Shown here: positions 18,632 to 30,750 of the stretch, in pieces
Layout of the letters: every line of letters starts with the position of its first letter
Numbering within the stretch: the stretch's first letter is position 1
Assembly (NCBI GenBank): GCA_050257045.1
Contig: JBLMWD010000093.1
Location: forward strand, 21,242 to 85,241
DNA from: Bacteroidota bacterium
GTDB taxonomy: Bacteria > Eisenbacteria > RBG-16-71-46 > SZUA-252
DNA length: 64,000 nucleotides
Direction: 5' to 3'
Made by a program: the position numbers and the translations under genes
The notes under the pieces: model-generated
The model's database searches: none
The model's input: only the letters and a program-made list of their open reading frames with translations
What the model was told of the DNA's origin: nothing

Positions 18632-18800
18632 GAATGGCTCCTGGGTGATGCGCCATGAAGGCGGGGCCCACTAAAAAGCCGCGCCGGTATGCTCCCTTTC
18701 GCGAAACGCCTGTGCATAACTGGCCCGGTGCTCGTCAATCGGCCAATCGCAAACTGCTGGTGCGGCGTCGGTTCACACGTTGTCCACCGAGAATACCGAG

Positions 18801-18809
18801 TTATCCACA
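18801..18809 (+). promoter_or_regulatory. Consensus DnaA box TTATCCACA 8 bp past the parB stop, in the moxR promoter region
   Basis: Exact 9/9 match to the DnaA box consensus. A related TTGTCCACC lies at 18779..18787. Confidence 0.5.
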
Positions 18810-18816
18810 ACGGGAC

Positions 18817-19746
18817 TCAACGGTGCGCCGTCGCTCCGCCGATTTCCCGGAGCATGCCGAGGATCCGGTCCAGCTCCTCTTCCGTATGGTACTCGATCAG
18901 GATGCTCCCCGACCCGCCGCGGCGGCGGGTCAGCCTCACCTTGGCGCCCATCACCCTCATCAACTCATCTTCCAGCGCCATGAGTTCCGCGGAAAACGCG
19001 CGGCGAGGGGAGCGCCTCGTCCGGGCGGCCCGCGGCGCGCCCGACCGGCGGATCCGCTCCTCGAGGTCGCGCACCGACCATCCGTGGGAAGCGGCCGTGG
19101 TCGCGAGGTCGGTCTGCTGCTTCGGGGTCGCGAGGGCGAGGAGAGCTCGCCCATGCCCCGCGCTGAGGGAGCCGGATTCCATCAGTTGCTGCACTTCCTG
19201 TGGTAAGTTGTTGAATCGAATCGTGTTCGAAACAGTGGATCGATCCTTCCCGACGCGCTGCCCGATTTCCTCGTGCTGAAGACCGTATTCCGTTGCGAGT
19301 CGGTAATAAGCGCGCGCTTCGTCGATCGGATTCAGATTCTCGCGCTGGATGTTCTCGATGAGCGCGATCAGGAGCGATTCGCGATCCGTGAGCGGACGGA
19401 TGATGGAGGGGATCGCCGCAAGGCCGGCTTCCCGCGCGGCCAGGAACCGCCGCTCTCCCGCCACCAGTTGATACCCGTCGCCGGCGGGCCGGAGAAGAAC
19501 GGGCTGGAGGACGCCGCGCTCCCGGATCGAGGAGGCCAGCTCCTGGATCGCGGCCGGATCGAACTGGGACCGCGGCTGCGACGGATTGCGGACGATCTTG
19601 CCGAGCGGGATGTGCTGGATATCTCCGGATCGGACCTCTCCCTGCCGGGGGTCGGCCGGGCGCGGCTCCGGAACCACCGAAACCTCCCGTTCGACCGCGG
19701 CCGGAATCAATGCCTCGAGCCCCCGACCAAGCGCCTTTCTAACCAC
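18817..19746 (-). CDS. parB: Chromosome partitioning protein ParB
   Basis: Track ORF trimmed to GTG 19746 (VVRKALGRGLEALIP...), with a GGAGG SD 9 nt upstream. It has ParB box motifs (GERRFLAAREAGL) and an HTH. The start overlaps the parA stop by 8 nt. Confidence 0.85.
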   Translation of the reverse strand: MVRKALGRGLEALIPAAVEREVSVVPEPRPADPRQGEVRSGDIQHIPLGKIVRNPSQPRSQFDPAAIQELASSIRERGVLQPVLLRPAGDGYQLVAGERRFLAAREAGLAAIPSIIRPLTDRESLLIALIENIQRENLNPIDEARAYYRLATEYGLQHEEIGQRVGKDRSTVSNTIRFNNLPQEVQQLMESGSLSAGHGRALLALATPKQQTDLATTAASHGWSVRDLEERIRRSGAPRAARTRRSPRRAFSAELMALEDELMRVMGAKVRLTRRRGGSGSILIEYHTEEELDRILGMLREIGGATAHR

Positions 19747-20500
19747 GTTCCAACACCTCCCTCGCCAAGTTGACGTAGCTCGTGGCACCCGCGCACTGAG
19801 GATCATAGATGACGACCGGCTTCCCGAAGCTGGGCGCCTCGCTCAGGCGCACGTTGCGTGGGATGACGGTTCGATAGACGCGCTCCGCGAAGAAACGACG
19901 GGTCTCCTCCAGGACCTGCTGCGACAGGTTTAGCCGGTTATCGTACATGGTCAGCAGAACGCCTTCGATCTGGAGGTCCGGGTTGAGGCCCTGTTGCACC
20001 AGGCGGATCGCGCCCAGGAGATGGCTCAACCCTTCGAGCGCGTAGTATTCGCACTGCACGGGGACGAGGACCGAGCGCGCCGCGGTCAGCGCATTGATGG
20101 TCAGGAAGCCGAGCGAGGGAGGCGCGTCGATAAGGATGAAATCGAAGTCACGCTCCACCTCGTGCAGCGCATCCTTGAGCCGGTACTCGCGGCGGTCCAC
20201 CCCGACCAGCTCCACTTCCGCACCCACCAGCCGCTGGCCGGAGGGGACGAGCGTGAGCCCCGGCACTTCGGTCTCCATCGCGACGTCCCGGATCGAGGCG
20301 TGCCCGGTGAGCACGTCGTAGATCCCCCGCGCCACCTTCAGTCCCGGATAGCCGAGACCGCTGCCCGCGTTCCCCTGGGGATCGAGGTCGATCAGGAGCA
20401 CCTTGCGGCCCGCGAGCGCGAGCGAGGCCGCGAGATTCACCGCCGTGGTCGTCTTCCCGACGCCACCCTTCTGGTTCGCTACCGCTACCGTCCTTGGCAT
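19739..20500 (-). CDS. parA: Chromosome partitioning ATPase ParA (Soj)
   Basis: 253 aa from ATG 20500 (MPRTVAVANQKGGVGKTTTAVNLAA...), with the deviant Walker A KGGVGKTT. Confidence 0.9.
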   Translation of the reverse strand: MPRTVAVANQKGGVGKTTTAVNLAASLALAGRKVLLIDLDPQGNAGSGLGYPGLKVARGIYDVLTGHASIRDVAMETEVPGLTLVPSGQRLVGAEVELVGVDRREYRLKDALHEVERDFDFILIDAPPSLGFLTINALTAARSVLVPVQCEYYALEGLSHLLGAIRLVQQGLNPDLQIEGVLLTMYDNRLNLSQQVLEETRRFFAERVYRTVIPRNVRLSEAPSFGKPVVIYDPQCAGATSYVNLAREVLERG

Positions 20501-20595
20501 CACCCCACCACCCCTGCTCACGAACCGAGCTTTGAGTTGTTTGAATCGGGGATGGTGCAGTGTAGGGGAGATCACGATTCGGCGCTAGAGATTCC

Positions 20596-20611
20596 ATGTT
20601 TCACGTGAAAC
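20596..20611. promoter_or_regulatory. parS centromere-like site (15/16 match to TGTTTCACGTGAAACA)
   Basis: Sequence TGTTTCACGTGAAACG lies 95 bp upstream of the parA start. Confidence 0.85.
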
Positions 20612-20988
20612 GTGGCGGTATTTTGCTGTGAACACGTGCGTTGCCCCGGAGAGCCCGAAACTAACCTGTGCGACGCGAGCGAGGCGCGCTTTGCGCCCCC
20701 GTGCGGTTGTACTGGTCTCAAGTCACAACGAACGCGAAGCTCTTTAGGTCGTGGGATTGGGGAGTAGAAGCGGCTACGAGCCGAGGCCCTTGGTGGGGTT
20801 GGTTCGACAACATCTCCCAGGAGATGTTGTCGCGTGCCAATCTGTCGCGGATCCATCCGAATCGGACGCGGCCAGCTGGTTCAACGGAACAGGAGTTCGC
20901 CCGCCTGCGGGCGGGCGCATATCCGTGAAACACGGAGTTAGTTTCGAGGTCTCCGGGGTAACGAACGATTTTCTAGGGATTTACGGCC

Positions 20989-21004
20989 ATGTTTCACGTG
21001 AAAC
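20989..21004. promoter_or_regulatory. parS centromere-like site, perfect 16/16 palindrome TGTTTCACGTGAAACA
   Basis: Exact consensus parS lies 16 bp downstream of the rsmG stop. Confidence 0.9.
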
Positions 21005-21019
21005 ATGCGCCATGCCGCC

Positions 21020-21718
21020 TTATGGACGGGGGAATTTGCCCGTGAGAAGACGCCCGCCGAAGGCCCCCTTCATCACCTCGGCCGAGGCGCTCTCCCCATC
21101 GAGAGCCTCTTCCCTGGAGCGCGACCCGAGGAAGTAGACCCAGCCGGCATCCTCGGTGGCCGCTTTCGAGGCGTTCGCCAGAGTCACCGCCAAGTCACCG
21201 AGCGCCCGGATGAAGACGGCATCGAAGGGGCCGGACGTCCAGCTCCGCCCGTAATCCTCGAGGCGCGCGCACACGACCCGCACATTGCGGAGCCCAAGCG
21301 CACGCACGGCCTGTTCGAGGAAGCCCGCCTTTCGCTCGCGCGACTCGAGCAGCACCACCTGCGACGCCGGCCATGCGATCGCGAGGGGAATGCCCGGCAG
21401 TCCGGCTCCGCTGCCGATGTCCAGGGCCGAACGTGGCGGCGCCGGGAGGGCCGTGAGGGCGTTCAGTGAATCGAGCACGTGGCGGGTGTAGACGTGGGCG
21501 CGGTCTCCCTTGCCGATCAGGGCCAGGCCGGCCGCCCGCTGATAGAGCAGGCGCCCGTACTCGCGCCACAGGCGTAGCGCCGTCGGGTCGCGAACCGGGT
21601 CGAGGCCACTTCCTGCACCGGCCGCGGCCTGGCCCAGCGCTTCGCGGAAGCGCTCGAAATCCGGATTCAGCTCAGGAGGAAGATCGCGAGGAGGCGCGCC
21701 GGCGCTCTCGTTCGGCAT
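21020..21718 (-). CDS. rsmG: 16S rRNA (guanine527-N7)-methyltransferase
   Basis: Track ORF of 232 aa with the SAM-binding motif [16 protein letters not shown]. It sits in the gidA-gidB context. Confidence 0.85.
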
Positions 21719-23516
21719 AGATCGTCAGCACCGCGACGTCAGCGGGCGAGAAGCCGGGCAGTCTCGATGCCTGCCCGACGGTGGAGGGCCGGAACCGACG
21801 GATCTTCTCGTGCCCCTCTCGAGAAAGCCCCTGCATCTCGATCGTGAGCAGCCCGTCGGGGATTTCGAGTCGCTCGTTGTGGGAGGCGCGCTCCACGGCG
21901 CGGCGCTGGCGCTCGATGTAGCCCTCGTAACGGATCTCGATGAGAGCCGACTCGGCCGCCTCGTCCTCCACGGAGACCGATGCCGTCGCGTGGCCGCTCG
22001 CGCCGGCCACGCCCGACCGTACGAGATGCTCGTGCGGACGGTTGGTGACCGAGCCCACGCCGCGCACCGCGCGCAGACGTCCCAGCGCGGCACGCGTGGC
22101 GGCCATTCGCGTCTCGAGCACCTGCAGCTCGTCGCGGTCCAGGGTGCCGATCGAGCGCGCATGGTGCGCGAGCCGCTCGGGCGCGTTGTCCTGGCGCAGC
22201 AGGAGCCGATGTTCGGCGCTCGATGTGAACATGCGGTACGGCTCCTCGGTCCCTTTGGTCACGAGGTCGTCGATGAGAACTCCGATGTAGGCTTCGTCCC
22301 GCCGGAGGACGAACGGCTCGCGGCCGAGAATCCGGTTCGCGGCGTTGATCCCCGCCATGAGCCCTTGGGCCGCGGCTTCCTCGTACCCCGACGTGCCGTT
22401 GATCTGACCCGCCAGGAAGAGGCCGGCCACCGGGCGCGTCTCGAGCGTGGGACGGAGCTGCGTTGGAGGAACGAAGTCGTACTCGACGGCGTAGCCGGTG
22501 CGAATCAGCTCGGCCTCCTCGAGCCCGGGAATCGTCTTCAACATCTCGCGCTGGACGTCCTCGGGCAGGCTCGTCGAGAGCCCGTTGACGTAGTACTCGT
22601 GCGTCGTCCGTCCCTCCGGCTCGAGGAAGATCTGGTGCGCCGTCTTGTCGGCAAAGCGAACCACCTTGTCCTCCACCGACGGACAGTATCGAGGGCCGAT
22701 GCCGCGGATCTTCCCGGTGTAGAGCGGCGACCGGTGGAGGTTGGCGCGGATCACGTCGTGCGTCTCGGCCGTGGTCGCGGTGAGGTGGCAGAGCACCTGG
22801 TCGACGCAGAGCGACTCGGTGAAGTGCGAGAACGGCCGCGGCGGATCATCGCCTCGCTGCTCGAGACATCGCGCGAAGTCGATCGAGTCCCGATGGAGGC
22901 GGGGCGGCGTGCCGGTCTTCAGCCGGATCATCGTGAACCCAAGCGAGGTCAGGCACTCCGAGATCCCGCGCGACGGGGCCTCGCCGGCCCGGCCGCCCGG
23001 CGTGCTTCGATCGCCGACGTGCAGGAGCCCGTTCAAAAAGGTGCCTGGGGTCACCACGACCGCTTCGGCTTCCAGCACATCGCCCGCCGCGGTCCGGACG
23101 CCGCGCACGATCCCGCCTTCCACCACGAGCCCGGTGACCTGCGTTTGCACGAGCGTGATCCCGGCGGTGTGCTCGAGATGCTCGCGAACGATCGTCCGGT
23201 AGAGGGCCTTGTCTTCCTGGGCGCGTGGCGACCAGACGGCCGGTCCGCGGCCGCGGTTCAGCATCTTGAACTGGATCCCGGCACGGTCGGCCATCCGCCC
23301 CATGATGCCGCCAAGCGCATCGATCTCTCGCACCAGGTGGCCCTTGGCCAATCCGCCGATCGCCGGATTGCACGGCATGTGCGCGATCGACTCGAAGCTC
23401 ATCGTGACGAGCCCCACGTCGATCCCGAGGCGTGCCGCGATCGAGGCAGCCTCACAGCCAGCGTGACCCGCGCCGATCACGAGCATCGAGTAGTGACTTC
23501 GCGGCACGCCGCTCAT
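21672..23516 (-). CDS. mnmG: tRNA uridine 5-carboxymethylaminomethyl modification enzyme MnmG (GidA)
   Basis: Track ORF of 614 aa with FAD-binding [12 protein letters not shown] and a conserved GidA core. Confidence 0.9.
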
Positions 23517-28741: not shown

Positions 28742-28750
28742 TGTGGATAA
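28742..28750 (-). promoter_or_regulatory. Consensus DnaA box (TGTGGATAA = TTATCCACA) in the dnaA promoter, with a second degenerate box at 28754..28762
   Basis: There is a 9/9 match 49 bp upstream of the dnaA ATG, followed by TGTGGATTG (7/9). This is the typical dnaA autoregulatory arrangement. Confidence 0.7.
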
Positions 28751-28798
28751 GTGTGTGGATTGTGCGTGGAGTGGGTGTGGTCAAGTGGGGATAGGGAA

Positions 28799-30268
28799 AT
28801 GATCGAAAAAGCTGCCGTCGATCTGTGGGAACGCGCACTCGGAACCATCCAGGACAGCATGTCGCCGCAAGCCTACGACACGTGGTTCCGGTCGCTCCGG
28901 CCGGTGGCGCTGAACGGCGCGCTCGTGTTGGAGGTTCCGAGCCAGTTCTACGTGGACTGGCTCGACCAGCACTACCGCGCGCTGATCGAGGCGTCGGTCG
29001 CGACCGCGGCCGGCGAAACGATCCGCGTCAAGTTCCAGGTTCGCGAAGAGGAGCCCGAGGCCCTTCTCGCCGCCGCTCCCGAGCTCGCGGTGAGCGGGGC
29101 CGGGATCGCGGGCTCCGGCGGCCCGCCCCCGTTCCGGTCGACCGCGATCGGATCGCCGGGCGCTTCCGACCCCGGCTGGAACATCGGGATCACGCCGAAC
29201 CGCCAAAGTGGAACGAGCGGATGGAGCGGACAGCTCCCGTCGCGTGACGAGAGCGCGCTCTTTCCGCTCAACACGTTCGAGACGTTCGTGGTCGGCAACG
29301 GCAATCAGTTCGCGCACGCCGTCTGCCAGGCCGTCGCGCAGAGCCCCGGGGAGCGCTACAACCCGCTCTTCCTCTACGGCGGCGTCGGCCTCGGGAAGAC
29401 GCACCTCATGCACGCGATCGGGCACTACGTCCGCGCGCAGCGCAAGCACGCGAAGGTCTTCTTCGTGTCCGCCGAGAAGTTCATGAACGAGATGATCTAC
29501 GCGATCCAGCACGCCACGACGCTCGAGTTCAAGGCGCGCTACCGCTCCGCGGATCTCCTCCTCATCGACGACATCCAGTTCCTCGAGGGGAAGGAATCGA
29601 CCCAGGAGGAGTTCTTCCACACGTTCAACGCCCTCCACGACCAGCACCGCCAGATCGTGCTCACGAGCGACGGGCCGCCGAACGCGATGACCGCGCTCGA
29701 GGAGCGGCTCGTCTCGCGCTTCTCCTGGGGCGTGGTGGCCGATCTCCAGCCGCCCGATCTCGAGACCCGCGTCGCCATCGTGAAGAAGAAGGCCGAGCTG
29801 AACGGCCGCGTCGTGCCGAACGAAATCGCGCTCCTCCTCGCGAGCAACATCAAGAACAACATCCGCGACCTCGAGGGCTCGCTCGCGCGTCTCCTCGCCT
29901 TCGCCGACCTCACCAACTCGGAGCTCACGGTCGATTTCGCGCAGGACGTGCTCCGCGATCAGATCAAGCCGGACCTCGCCCGGTTCGACGTGCACGACAT
30001 CCAGCGCGTCGTGGCGCGCCACTTCAACGTCACCGAGGAGTCGCTGCGCGGGAAGCGGCGCACCGACACGATCGCCTTCCCGCGGCAGATCGGCATGTAC
30101 ATCGCGCGGACGATCACCGACCTCTCGCTCGCCGACATCGGCGCGAAGTTCGGGGGGCGCGACCACACGACGGTTCTCCATGCCTGCCAGAAGATCGAGG
30201 CGCTCATCACCAGCGACCCCGAGATGCGCGGCGTGGTCGAGGAGTTGATGGCGCAGATCACCGCCTAA
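28799..30268 (+). CDS. dnaA: Chromosomal replication initiator protein DnaA
   Basis: Track ORF trimmed to ATG 28799 (MIEKAAVDLWERALGTIQDSMSPQAYDTWF...). It has an AAA+ core (LFLYGGVGLGKTHLMHAIG), the sensor motifs, and the C-terminal DNA-binding signature (GGRDHTTVLHACQKIE). Confidence 0.9.
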   Translation: MIEKAAVDLWERALGTIQDSMSPQAYDTWFRSLRPVALNGALVLEVPSQFYVDWLDQHYRALIEASVATAAGETIRVKFQVREEEPEALLAAAPELAVSGAGIAGSGGPPPFRSTAIGSPGASDPGWNIGITPNRQSGTSGWSGQLPSRDESALFPLNTFETFVVGNGNQFAHAVCQAVAQSPGERYNPLFLYGGVGLGKTHLMHAIGHYVRAQRKHAKVFFVSAEKFMNEMIYAIQHATTLEFKARYRSADLLLIDDIQFLEGKESTQEEFFHTFNALHDQHRQIVLTSDGPPNAMTALEERLVSRFSWGVVADLQPPDLETRVAIVKKKAELNGRVVPNEIALLLASNIKNNIRDLEGSLARLLAFADLTNSELTVDFAQDVLRDQIKPDLARFDVHDIQRVVARHFNVTEESLRGKRRTDTIAFPRQIGMYIARTITDLSLADIGAKFGGRDHTTVLHACQKIEALITSDPEMRGVVEELMAQITA

Positions 30269-30269
30269 A

Positions 30270-30750
30270 TCGGGCGGCTCACATCAGGCCGGTCATTGAA
30301 CGTGGTCTACCCGGAAGAGGCGTCGCGGATGCGGCGCCTCTTCTTTTTTCATTTGGGGAAAGGGTGTGGAAAACCCGGTGCCAGGACCCGGCCGGCGCCG
30401 TCCGGTGGGCGCCTGTGGATCGGCGGGAGCTTATCCCCAGCCCGGTACGAGCCGCCGCGCCGGCGGCAATGGTCGTGGATTTGGTTGGGGTACAAATACT
30501 TACCCTTTTCGGCCCTCTTCTCGTCCCCACCCTCCACCGCCCCTACAACCACTGCATCTATTCATGGAACCTATTCGTTCTTGGAGCAGCCGAACTCCGT
30601 GGAAAACCAGGCTCTTGAACGACCCTTTAGTGTTGTTCGAAACCCCTCGAAAACCTATAATTCGGAGTGACGACCAAGCCACCCCGACGCGACCGCAACC
30701 ACCAATACCTAAAGGGACTTAGACACATGACAATCGCACAGGACGTGGCC
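30270..30750. other. Candidate oriC: DnaA-box cluster plus AT-rich DNA unwinding element in the dnaA-dnaN spacer
   Basis: Four DnaA-box-like 9-mers occur at 30364..30372 (TGTGGAAAA), 30413..30421 (TGTGGATCG), 30430..30438 (TTATCCCCA) and 30473..30481 (CGTGGATTT). A markedly AT-richer tract follows at about 30480..30700, which is unusual in a 70% GC genome. The rpmH/dnaA gene-strand switch is 1.5 kb to the left. Confidence 0.6.

What the first reader, a model, noticed from the sequence alone, without database searches (positions are those of the whole stretch)
20596..21004. Two consensus parS sites bracket a 380-bp lower-GC non-coding segment containing a 26-bp perfect palindrome and a GC hairpin
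parS 20596..20611 (15/16) and parS 20989..21004 (16/16) flank the parA-rsmG intergenic region. Inside it, ORFs have poor GC3 (about 60%), so it is probably not coding. It holds GACAACATCTCC-CAGG-GGAGATGTTGTC (20806..20831), a perfect 12-bp-arm palindrome, and CGCCCGCC-TGCG-GGCGGGCG (20898..20917). It also holds a parS half-site-like CCGTGAAACACGG (20923..20935). The segment could encode a small RNA, or a regulator binding site for the parAB or gid operons, embedded in the ParB spreading zone.
Basis: seen in the sequence. Interest (0 to 1): 0.5.

Follow-up and report, generated by a model that had tools for sequence, protein, structure and literature searches.

The report
Paired extended parS modules, variable spacer

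Summary
All reported features exist. The parS coordinates are one base low, and the palindrome has a 2-nt centre, not 4. The 519-bp rsmG–parA spacer is non-coding and has no Rfam match.

The main new result is that the two parS sites are the outer ends of a 71-nt imperfect inverted repeat. In 12 related spacers (labelled Candidatus Eisenbacteria; ParA 86–99% identical), every parS carries the same indel-free extension, pointing inward:
- parS, then 44 nt, then an invariant AAACTAA.
- Often a perfect half-parS follows.

The two arms do not covary with each other and have no internal RNA structure. The motif occurs nowhere else in about 163 kb of clade sequence. Paired parS sites in 65 other bacterial loci lack such extensions. 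This points to a sequence-specific protein-binding module.

The core between the arms is 111–747 nt long and cannot be aligned between lineages. The 26-bp palindrome belongs to a hairpin family (AAC-N6-yr-N6'-GTT) with 0 to 10 copies per genome, so it is not a conserved operator. The GC hairpin is probably the rsmG terminator. A conserved parA promoter lies 8 nt beyond the parA-side parS.

I found no support for a small RNA. I rate this a new variant of a known kind, of moderate interest.

The parts
21020..21718 (-). rsmG (16S rRNA m7G527 methyltransferase), last gene of the mnmE-mnmG-rsmG run
   Evidence: Pfam GidB, E = 5e-35. Relatives 91% identical.
20990..21005 (.). parS-G, a perfect 16/16 parS, 15 nt after the rsmG stop. 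It is the outer end of the rsmG-side arm.
   Evidence: Invariant in 21 arms.
20937..21007 (-). G arm: parS plus a 53-nt inward extension. Inverted-repeat partner of 20595-20665.
   Evidence: I1 (71 nt, 79% complementary). Orthologous arms in L161, L163-L166, L168-L170, L172 and L174 without indels.
20937..20963 (-). Box-G: CGTTACCCCGGAGACCTCGAAACTAAC, the conserved inner block of the arm, containing the invariant AAACTAA
20925..20932 (-). Perfect half-parS (TGTTTCAC) 4 nt inside box-G
   Evidence: the only GTTTCAC outside the parS sites in 64 kb. A GTTTCAC or GTTCCAC half-site sits at the same place in 9 of 21 arms.
20898..20917 (-). G+C hairpin CGCCCGCC-cgca-GGCGGGCG, the probable intrinsic terminator of the rsmG operon
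   Evidence: -21.4 kcal/mol, z = -2.8. Conserved in L161 and L163. The tail AACUCCUGUUCC is U-poor. Terminator function is inferred.
20805..20832 (.). 28-bp palindrome (13-bp arms, 2-nt centre). The single window copy of the hairpin family AAC-N6-yr-N6'-GTT.
   Evidence: -21.7 and -27.6 kcal/mol; z = -4.7 and -6.3. Family members in L169, L166 and L168. Contigs L161 and L163 end at it.
20666..20936 (.). Hypervariable core between the two arms (271 nt here; 111-747 nt in relatives)
20595..20665 (+). A arm: parS plus a 53-nt inward extension on the parA side
   Evidence: I1. Orthologous arms in L164-L166, L168-L172, L174, L176 and L177.
20639..20665 (+). Box-A: CGTTGCCCCGGAGAGCCCGAAACTAAC
20597..20612 (.). 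parS-A (15/16), 8 nt upstream of the putative parA -35 hexamer
20559..20588 (-). Putative sigma-70-type parA promoter: -35 CTAGCG (20583-20588), 18-nt spacer, -10 TACACT (20559-20564)
   Evidence: TA.ACT is invariant and TTGGCG/TTGGCC/CTGGCG stands at -35 in nine relatives. It was not picked up by the strict consensus scan, so it is inferred.
19739..20500 (-). parA (253 aa)
   Evidence: Pfam AAA_31, CbiA and ParA. Identical to P0121.
18817..19746 (-). parB (309 aa; ParB_N, HTH_ParB, ParB_C; contains GERRF)
   Evidence: Translation.

Best explanation
The segment is the chromosomal centromere and regulatory spacer of the parAB operon of an uncultured, roughly 70% G+C bacterium; its relatives are labelled Candidatus Eisenbacteria. 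It has three layers.

(1) Two composite ParB-loading modules face each other. Each module is a canonical parS followed, on its inner side and in fixed register, by a conserved 53-nt extension that ends in CGAAACTAAC, often followed by a half-parS (TGTTTCAC). That the arms are conserved as primary sequence is shown. That they are a protein-binding platform is inferred. The platform would be read either by ParB itself in a second, half-site mode (the extension carries the GAAAC core of a parS half-site plus a true half-parS) or by an unidentified accessory protein. It would help assemble or orient the partition complex.

(2) The parA-side module abuts a conserved sigma-70-type promoter: parS ends 8 nt before the -35. 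ParB bound there would autoregulate parAB. This is inferred from position.

(3) The core between the modules is dispensable filler. It first carries the terminator of the rsmG operon (the G+C hairpin; inferred). It then carries lineage-specific hairpin repeats, of which the 26-bp palindrome is the window's single copy. These palindromes are born and amplified locally, probably by template switching or slippage at hairpins. They may act as extra RNA 3'-end or insulator hairpins. They are not a conserved operator and not a small-RNA gene.
For: Context:
- Gene order and identities place the spacer about 8 kb from dnaA, with DnaA boxes near dnaA and none in the spacer.
- parS occurs twice in 64 kb, against 0 expected.

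The arms:
- The two parS sites are the ends of a 71-nt inverted repeat.
- The same 70-76-nt inverted arms occur in L164, L165, L166 and L168, with 111-741 nt between them, and in L169/L170, L172 and L174.
- 21 arms align without a single indel over 72 nt. parS, T17, A24, G44, T46 and AAACTAA are invariant.
- rsmG-side arms are orthologous to each other and parA-side arms to each other. Own-genome identity between the two arms (0.676) equals cross-genome identity (0.683), so neither gene conversion nor pairing between arms maintains them.
- RNAalifold finds no structure beyond the parS palindrome.
- Inward-flank identity of 0.57-0.75 is seen only in this clade. It is at most 0.5 in 65 other loci with two or more parS, and outward flanks score 0.25-0.36.
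- GAAACTAA[CG] occurs only in the arms in about 163 kb of clade DNA.

Half-parS:
- All GTTTCAC heptamers of the window lie in the spacer.
- ParB binding to GTTTCAC/GTTCCAC half-sites is documented in Pseudomonas aeruginosa and other species (PMC7022226, PMC5961200, PMC10419367).

Promoter: TA.ACT is invariant, with TTGG-type -35 hexamers.

Core:
- No BLAST similarity between lineages.
- L164 versus L165: parA 98.4% identical, core 62% against 51% for shuffles.
- The core fold is not unusual (z = -1.2).

Hairpins:
- The hairpin family has five different self-complementary inner stems. Three of them coexist in L166. Copy number is 0-10.
- The G+C hairpin is conserved in L161 and L163.
- L174 carries a classic A-run/stem/T-run hairpin at the equivalent place.
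Against: - Nothing here shows protein binding. The organism is uncultured, and no factor for the box is known or encoded next to the locus.
- ParB (309 aa) has only the three standard domains, so nothing obvious in it would read a 50-nt extension.
- The half-parS is present in only 9 of 21 arms.
- Apart from the GAAAC at positions 61-65 (mean 5.05/8 match to a parS half), the extension does not resemble parS.
- Conserved positions show no significant helical periodicity (p = 0.24).
- The G+C hairpin lacks a U-tract.
- The promoter was not found by the strict consensus scan.
- All relatives are metagenome assemblies, and many contigs break inside this spacer, so some core sequences could be misassembled.
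- Only one locus per genome was seen, so I cannot say whether the extension accompanies every parS of these genomes.
Confidence: 0.5

Rival explanations
1. One reading: the segment between the parS sites encodes a small RNA.
For: The segment is non-coding and has two stable local hairpins. The whole spacer folds much better than shuffles (z = -6.1 and -8.2).
Against: - The good whole-spacer fold is produced by the two inverted arms pairing with each other. The arms do not covary.
- The core alone has z = -1.2.
- No promoter-like site and no Rfam family.
- The core cannot be aligned even between genomes with 98.4% identical parA.
Confidence: 0.06
2. One reading: the 26-bp palindrome is the operator of a dimeric regulator of parAB or the gid genes.
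For: It is a perfect 12/13-bp-arm palindrome, the longest in 64 kb. Related palindromes keep AAC...GTT at a fixed distance from the dyad in four lineages. The CGAACAT/ATGTTCG ends of the L166/L168 copies resemble LexA (Cheo-box) half-sites (from my own knowledge).
Against: - It is absent from L164/L165, L172 and L174 while the promoter is conserved.
- Copy number is 0-10, and the position in the core is not fixed.
- It lies about 250 bp upstream of the putative -10.
- The inner 6 bp differ between copies yet stay self-complementary, with three versions inside one genome. A single protein's specificity does not explain that, but hairpin formation or palindrome-generating mutation does.
- The half-sites are 10 bp further apart than in a LexA box, and GAAC-N4-GTTC is not enriched in the window.
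Confidence: 0.1
3. The arms are the terminal inverted repeats of an old non-autonomous mobile element (MITE-like) that landed at or carried parS. The hairpin-rich core is its decaying cargo, and nothing beyond the parS sites is functional.
For: The shape is that of inverted ends with a variable, hairpin-rich interior. The core changes by replacement. Contigs break here.
Against: - There is only one copy per genome stretch: no other copy of the box in the 64-kb window or in about 163 kb of clade DNA, and no match in plasmids or phages.
- No transposase is nearby.
- The two arms have evolved as separate orthologous lineages yet keep the same positions invariant and indel-free across genomes whose rsmG is only 62-65% identical at DNA level. 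That indicates purifying selection rather than decay.
Confidence: 0.1
4. The inverted arms are recombination sites of an invertible DNA switch that flips the core between rsmG and parA.
For: Inverted repeats bracket a variable segment directly upstream of a promoter. Assemblies fragment at the locus.
Against: - The arms are only 73-80% identical.
- No recombinase gene is in the conserved neighbourhood.
- Where two assemblies of one lineage exist, the core has the same orientation (window/L161/L163, L169/L170, L172/L173). The only inverted BLAST hits are palindromes.
- The parA promoter lies outside the flanked segment.
Confidence: 0.04
5. Two ordinary parS sites with no further function. The similarity of their inner flanks is a relic of an inverted duplication, and the apparent conservation is an artefact of few, closely related genomes.
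For: Pairs of parS near parAB are common: 65 of 177 fetched loci have two or more. The sampled genomes all belong to one clade.
Against: - The core next to the arms is randomised between the same genomes, while the arms keep 21/21 invariant positions and no indels.
- Conservation extends to genomes with ParA 86-87% and rsmG DNA about 63% identical.
Confidence: 0.12

Closest known systems
Chromosomal parS sites clustered at the parAB operon near oriC (Bacillus, Caulobacter, Pseudomonas, Myxococcus; review PMC7022226)
   Same: The 16-bp TGTTTCACGTGAAACA palindrome lies next to parAB, about 8 kb from dnaA. The cognate ParB has ParB_N, HTH and C-terminal domains.
   Different: Here each parS carries a clade-specific, fixed-register 53-66-nt extension, and the two are arranged as a mirror pair. 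Inward flanks of parS pairs in 65 other bacterial loci show no such similarity.
Half-parS (GTTTCAC/GTTCCAC) binding by ParB in Pseudomonas aeruginosa and other species (PMC5961200, PMC10419367, PMC7022226)
   Same: A perfect TGTTTCAC half-site is conserved 58 nt inside the full parS. The invariant box contains the GAAAC core of the other half.
   Different: In Pseudomonas the half-sites are hundreds of dispersed genomic sites. Here they are part of a fixed module attached to a full parS, and binding is untested.
Composite plasmid centromeres: P1 parS (box A/box B motifs around an IHF site) and iterated centromeres such as F sopC (from my own knowledge)
   Same: The centromere is made of a primary ParB site plus additional motifs in fixed register. 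The arrays of repeated short palindromes in L166/L168, including three tandem 37-bp units, look like iterated centromeres.
   Different: This is a chromosomal locus with a canonical parS. No IHF consensus is present in the arms. The repeated palindromes are absent from several close relatives, so they cannot be the essential centromere.
Plasmid-type autoregulated par operons, where the centromere or operator overlaps the par promoter (PMC7022226, section 10)
   Same: parS-A ends 8 nt upstream of the putative -35 of parA.
   Different: Chromosomal ParA lacks the N-terminal HTH of type Ia ParA. Regulation here is inferred from position only.
REP/BIME-type intergenic hairpin repeats and quasipalindrome template-switch mutation (from my own knowledge)
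   Same: Short, perfect or near-perfect hairpins with conserved stem bases lie downstream of an operon, in variable copy number. Perfect symmetry is kept while the sequence changes.
   Different: They are not dispersed. Every copy found lies inside this one spacer, and no RAYT-like transposase was seen.

Membership tests
Chromosomal ParABS centromere (parS) | 16-bp palindrome matching TGTTNCACGTGNAACA | tested here: met
   16/16 at 20990-21005 and 15/16 at 20597-20612; 0.00 expected by chance.
Chromosomal ParABS centromere (parS) | Next to a parA-parB operon in the origin-proximal region | tested here: met
   parA and parB confirmed with Pfam. dnaA lies at 28751-30268 with DnaA boxes at 28742, 30365 and 30431.
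Chromosomal ParABS centromere (parS) | ParB binds the site, loads as a CTP-dependent clamp and spreads | not testable with these tools
   ParB has ParB_N with GERRF, HTH_ParB and ParB_C. There are no binding data for this uncultured lineage.
Half-parS site | Heptamer GTTTCAC or GTTCCAC | tested here: met
   At 20925-20931. It is the only one in 64 kb outside the parS sites and is present at the same place in 9 of 21 arms.
Small RNA gene | Own promoter and terminator delimiting a transcript | tested here: not met
   No promoter-like site in 20300-21300. The hairpins present lack U-tracts.
Small RNA gene | Sequence or structure conserved in relatives, or membership of a described family | tested here: not met
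   No Rfam hit. The core cannot be aligned between lineages. Core fold z = -1.2.
Intrinsic terminator (G+C hairpin 20898-20917) | Stable G+C-rich stem-loop shortly after the last gene of an operon | tested here: met
   8 G-C pairs with a tetraloop, -21.4 kcal/mol. It begins 103 nt after the rsmG stop and is conserved in L161 and L163.
Intrinsic terminator (G+C hairpin 20898-20917) | U-rich tract directly after the stem | tested here: inconclusive
   The tail is AACUCCUGUUCCGUUG. The scan's rule of at least 5 T in 8 is not met. U-poor terminators are common in high-G+C bacteria (from my own knowledge).
Palindromic transcription-factor operator (26-bp palindrome) | Site conserved in sequence and position in orthologous regulatory regions | tested here: not met
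   Absent in L164, L165, L172 and L174. It has a different inner sequence in L169 and 7-10 copies in L166/L168.
Dispersed hairpin repeats (REP/MITE) | Many copies at unrelated loci of the same genome | tested here: not met
   One copy in the 64-kb window. In L166/L168 all copies lie inside the spacer. Only 5.8 kb of those genomes was available.
Invertible DNA switch | Inverted repeats flanking the segment | tested here: met
   71-nt arms, 79% complementary.
Invertible DNA switch | Site-specific recombinase nearby and both orientations present | tested here: not met
   No recombinase in the conserved neighbourhood. The core has the same orientation in all same-lineage pairs. Read-level data are not available.
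Replication origin (oriC) | Cluster of DnaA boxes with an AT-rich unwinding element | tested here: not met
   No TTATCCACA with up to 1 mismatch in 20501-21019.

The most novel reading that the evidence does not exclude
In this uncultured clade the chromosomal centromere is not a bare 16-bp parS. It is a directional module of about 72-82 bp: parS, then a fixed 44-nt spacer with conserved positions, then the invariant AAACTAA, then a half-parS. The module would be read by ParB in a second binding mode or by a so far unknown centromere-accessory protein. Two such modules face each other across a segment that has become a local hot spot for the birth, amplification and replacement of perfect palindromes, possibly because clamps loaded from both sides, or the accessory complex, promote hairpin extrusion and template switching there.
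Probability: 0.3. Interest if true: 0.65.

Novelty: new variant of a known kind. Interest (0 to 1): 0.45.

Why it matters
parS is treated as a self-sufficient 16-bp ParB loading site. A lineage in which every parS examined carries a conserved, oriented, indel-free extension would point to an extra determinant of partition-complex assembly, such as a second ParB binding mode or a new accessory factor. It gives a concrete 72-bp DNA probe with which to look for that determinant. The contrast between frozen arms and a scrambled, palindrome-rich core 30 nt away is also a clean natural example of very local differences in non-coding sequence turnover. It explains in practice why metagenome contigs of this group tend to break between rsmG and parA. 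If the arms turn out to be inert, the locus is an ordinary parS pair upstream of parAB.

Tried and rejected
- Rfam: nothing at E<=10 on 19500-22000, nor at gathering score on the whole window and six related loci.
- Coding potential of six spacer ORFs: none.
- Long-range RNA or cruciform pairing of the two arms: rejected, because own-genome arm identity equals cross-genome identity.
- Conserved secondary structure inside an arm: none beyond parS.
- Helical (10-11 bp) periodicity of conserved arm positions: not significant, p = 0.24.
- A further degenerate half-site at arm positions 31-38: not supported. Only position 59 stands out.
- Promoters inside the arms:
  - Sigma-70, sigma-54, ECF-type and Bacteroidetes-type motifs were checked by eye in both orientations.
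  - Spacings or key bases do not fit.
  - No conserved -35 lies upstream of the invariant TAGTTT in the outward orientation.
- oriC: no DnaA boxes in the spacer.
- LexA/Cheo-box reading of the palindromes: the half-sites are 10 bp too far apart, and GAAC-N4-GTTC is not enriched.
- Integron attC, Xer/dif and Hin-type hix sites were compared from memory. Size, spacer symmetry and flanking consensus do not fit, and no recombinase is nearby.
- RNA versus DNA level for the hairpins: G·T versus A·C mismatches are 4 versus 2, which is uninformative.
- BLAST of the 421-bp element against plasmids and phages: no match.
Close relatives had to be fetched one by one through protein look-ups.
Full report
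**1. Check of the observation**

- parS sites: a search with up to 3 mismatches finds exactly two in 64 kb, at 20597-20612 (15/16) and 20990-21005 (16/16), against 0.00 expected.
- Palindrome: it is GACAACATCTCC-CA-GGAGATGTTGTC at 20806-20831, with a 2-nt centre, not 'CAGG'. With the flanking C/G the arms are 13 bp.
  - It is the longest perfect short-loop palindrome in the window.
  - Only 1 of 30 composition-matched shuffles reached 13-bp arms.
- The G+C hairpin (20898-20917) and CCGTGAAACACGG (20923-20935) are as described.
- All five GTTTCAC heptamers of the window lie in this spacer. Four are in the two parS sites and the fifth is the half-site.
- Composition: the window is 70% G+C and the spacer 57-60%.
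- Coding: spacer ORFs have third-position G+C of 0.54-0.69, against 0.78-0.87 for the neighbouring genes. The segment is non-coding.

**2. Context**

Gene order:
- On the minus strand the genes run yidC, jag, mnmE, mnmG, rsmG (21020-21718), the spacer, parA (19739-20500), parB (18817-19746), moxR, a DUF58 gene, a batA-like gene and mfd.
- dnaA lies on the plus strand at 28751.

Origin:
- DnaA boxes sit next to dnaA (28742, 30365, 30431). None is in the spacer.
- The spacer is therefore an origin-proximal parAB upstream region, not oriC.

Lineage:
- ParA and RsmG searches place the organism among uncultured soil bacteria. The sources mostly name them Candidatus Eisenbacteria.
- I found nothing on partition systems of this group in the paper library.

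**3. What is conserved: the arms**

In the window:
- The repeat finder shows that the two parS sites are the outer ends of a 71-nt inverted repeat. The arms are 20595-20665 and 20937-21007, 79% complementary, with 271 nt between them.

Relatives examined:
- I fetched the rsmG-parA spacer, or the part of it the contig held, from relatives with ParA 86-99% identical.
- All complete spacers have the same layout. The inverted arms are 70-76 nt and lie 111 nt (L165), 121 nt (L164), 588 nt (L168) or 741 nt (L166) apart.
- L169/L170, L172/L173 and L174/L175 show the same arrangement.

Alignment of the arms:
- Twenty-one arms align over 72 nt without a single indel.
- The consensus is ATGTTTCACGTGAAACrTGGC.g.A.....CTG..AA...GT.CGTTg.CCcGG.G.....GAAACTAAC.
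- parS, T17, A24, G44, T46 and AAACTAA (positions 62-68) are invariant.
- In 9 arms a GTTTCAC or GTTCCAC half-parS follows 3-5 nt further in. The window's rsmG-side arm is one of them.

Five tests bear on what the arms are.
- (a) Relationship between the arms.
  - rsmG-side arms resemble each other across genomes, and so do parA-side arms.
  - Identity between the two arms of one genome (0.676) is no higher than between arms of different genomes (0.683).
  - The duplication is therefore old. Gene conversion does not homogenise the arms, and they are not kept complementary to each other.
  - This removes the long stem that dominates the RNA folds of the whole spacer.
- (b) RNAalifold on the 21 arms predicts only the parS palindrome. 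Conservation is therefore of primary sequence.
- (c) Specificity to the clade.
  - For every parS pair in all fetched loci I compared the 56 nt inside each site. Identity is 0.57-0.75 in this clade.
  - It is at most 0.5 in the other bacterial loci that have two or more parS (65 loci in all, including this clade's).
  - Outward flanks score 0.25-0.36 everywhere.
- (d) Restriction to the arms.
  - The 9-mer GAAACTAA[CG] occurs only in the arms in about 163 kb of clade sequence.
  - It occurs 4 times in 953 kb of other bacteria.
  - The longer box occurs twice in the window, against 0.01 expected.
- (e) The more distant L001 (ParA 84%) has four parS sites in an 800-bp spacer but no box. The module is therefore specific to a subclade.

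Taken together, the arms behave like an oriented, sequence-specific binding module attached to parS. I could not identify what binds it.
- The extension contains the GAAAC core of a parS half-site at positions 61-65 (mean match 5.05/8 against a background of 1.97), plus the true half-parS.
- ParB binding to such half-sites is documented in Pseudomonas aeruginosa and several other species (PMC7022226, PMC5961200, PMC10419367).
- A second mode of ParB binding is thus one candidate. An unknown accessory protein is the other.
- ParB here has only the standard three domains.
- I tested and dropped a helical periodicity of the conserved positions (p = 0.24).
- I also dropped promoter readings of the arms. 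No consistent -35 lies upstream of the invariant TAGTTT, and the spacings do not fit sigma-54 or ECF-type motifs.

**4. The parA promoter**

- Downstream of the parA-side parS, nine relatives share TA.ACT (TACACT or TAGACT). It is preceded at 17-18 nt by TTGGCG, TTGGCC, CTGGCG or CTAGCG.
- In the window this is -35 at 20583-20588 and -10 at 20559-20564 on the minus strand.
- parS ends 8 nt upstream of the -35. ParB bound there is positioned to modulate parAB transcription, as in autoregulated par operons (PMC7022226).
- This is inferred from position only. The strict consensus scan did not call the site.

**5. The core, the G+C hairpin and the palindrome**

Turnover of the core:
- The core between the arms is 111-747 nt long. 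It shows no BLAST similarity between lineages.
- L164 and L165 encode the identical ParA protein. Their parA genes are 98.4% identical (96% at third positions) and their arms 88-95%. Their cores are only 62% identical, against 51% for shuffled sequences.
- The window and L163 (rsmG 90.7% identical) share 92.6% over the first 108 nt of the core.
- Change therefore looks episodic, by replacement or expansion, rather than by steady hypermutation.

Folding of the core:
- As a whole it does not fold unusually well in the window, L164, L165, L169 or L172 (z between -1.2 and +1.8).
- It does in L166, L168 and L174 (z between -6.1 and -8.5), which carry hairpin arrays or one long hairpin.

The G+C hairpin:
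- It is stable (-21.4 kcal/mol).
- It is the first element after the rsmG-side arm, and it is conserved in L161 and L163.
- L174 has a textbook A-run/G+C stem/T-run hairpin in its core.
- I read the G+C hairpin as the terminator of the mnmE-mnmG-rsmG transcript. Its tail is U-poor, so this reading stays inferred.

The palindrome:
- It is one member of a family with the frame AAC-N6-yr-N6'-GTT. The inner stems found are:

| Locus | Inner stem |
|---|---|
| window | ATCTCC |
| L169 | TGTCCC |
| L166/L168 | ATGCTT, ATGCCC, TCGCCC |

- L166 has 10 copies, including three tandem 37-bp units. L168 has 7. The window and L169 have one each. L164, L165, L172 and L174 have none.
- The outer AAC/GTT keep the same distance from the dyad. 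The inner stems differ but stay self-complementary, with three versions inside one genome.
- That pattern fits hairpin formation, or a mutational process that creates perfect palindromes (template switching at quasipalindromes; from my own knowledge). It fits recognition by one dimeric regulator less well.
- Every copy found lies inside this spacer, so the family does not look like a dispersed REP-type element.
- Mismatch types do not tell whether the hairpins matter as RNA or as DNA.

Assembly breaks:
- Contigs L161 and L163 end exactly at the window-type palindrome.
- L176, an 82.6-kb contig, starts inside the long core hairpin.
- L171 and L177 start 21-24 nt into the core. L173 starts in the middle of a parS. 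L165 starts 23 nt before the rsmG-side parS.
- L169 and L170 have runs of N in the spacer.
- The locus is evidently hard to assemble. This fits repeats, hairpins and strain-level core variation. It also means individual core sequences should be treated with care.

**6. Comparison with known systems**

- What it works like: an origin-proximal chromosomal parS pair upstream of parAB. It has the organisation of a composite centromere, meaning a primary site plus accessory motifs in fixed register, as in P1 parS (from my own knowledge). Its half-parS is of the kind ParB binds in Pseudomonas.
- Membership of the chromosomal ParABS class is met for every sequence-level criterion. Binding and spreading cannot be tested here.
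- It fails the tests for a small-RNA gene, a conserved operator, a dispersed repeat, an invertible switch and an origin (see the membership table).

**7. Verdict**

The specific proposals, a small RNA or a palindrome operator, are not supported.
- The noteworthy feature is the clade-wide mirror pair of extended parS modules around a scrambled, hairpin-prone core.
- I call this a new variant of a known kind, with interest 0.45.
- The most novel reading, a directional composite centromere read by a second ParB mode or an unknown accessory factor, has a probability of about 0.3. If true it would deserve about 0.65.

Noticed in passing
window 18711-18719 and 18801-18809 (parB-moxR spacer); also 28742-28750, 30365-30373 and 30431-30439: DnaA boxes. 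A perfect TTATCCACA and a 1-mismatch copy lie in the 185-bp spacer just downstream of parB. A perfect box ends 1 nt before the dnaA start. Two 1-mismatch boxes lie just after dnaA. In total 5 were found against 1.2 expected. The likely oriC is next to dnaA. The pair after parB is unexplained.
   Followed up: partly
window 20543-20547, 20576-20580, 20590-20594: Three GANTC sites (GAATC, GATTC, GATTC) lie within about 50 bp of the putative parA promoter and leader, in a 70% G+C genome. All three are kept in L164, L165 and L177, but only one (CCCCGATTC) in L166 and L169, and none in L174 (sequences). This could hint at methylation-dependent control. It was not tested against chance with a tool.
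   Followed up: partly
L161, L163, L165, L171, L173, L176, L177 (contig ends); L169:2304-2317 and L170:2465-2499 (runs of N): Seven of 17 clade contigs, including ones of 14, 11.7 and 82.6 kb, end inside the rsmG-parA spacer. Two of them end exactly at the palindrome. An eighth (L162) ends at the rsmG stop codon. Two scaffolds have gaps there. The locus breaks assemblies.
   Followed up: partly
L168:1500-1585: Four tandem copies of an 18-19-nt unit (CCTAGGTCTCCCCGCAGG) lie directly after the rsmG stop and before the rsmG-side parS. They are absent from the sister genome L166.
   Followed up: no
L172:2290-2350 (core of its spacer): An AT-rich island of about 50 nt (TAAGTAATATTCAATAAGCATCTTATATGC) sits in an otherwise G+C-rich genome, followed by a third, partial copy of the arm box (CAAAACTAAC).
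   Followed up: no
L174:3690-3820 (and L176:1-70): A 30-bp-arm hairpin with a 47-nt loop is flanked by A7 and a T-run (-81 kcal/mol, z = -7.8). It looks like a bidirectional terminator between rsmG and parA.
   Followed up: partly
window 20886-20899: GGAACAGGAGTTCG fits the GAAC-N4-GTTC (LexA/Cheo-box-like) pattern. It lies immediately beside the G+C hairpin and is conserved in L161 and L163. Window-wide the pattern is at chance level, 7 found against 5.2 expected.
   Followed up: partly
protein P0121 (identical to window ParA; source contig 120,832 bp): The public record that carries this exact ParA is labelled 'Bacteroidota bacterium'. L001 (ParA 84%) is labelled 'Acidobacteriota bacterium'. 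Most close relatives are labelled Candidatus Eisenbacteria. The taxonomic labels of these MAGs disagree.
   Followed up: no
window 20988-21007 and all arms: In this clade the parS palindrome extends to 20-22 bp (cCATGTTTCACGTGAAACATGg). The outermost pair changes on both sides together (C...G in 15 arms, T...A in 2). The core palindromes of L166/L168 start and end with the same AACATG/CATGTT hexamers.
   Followed up: partly
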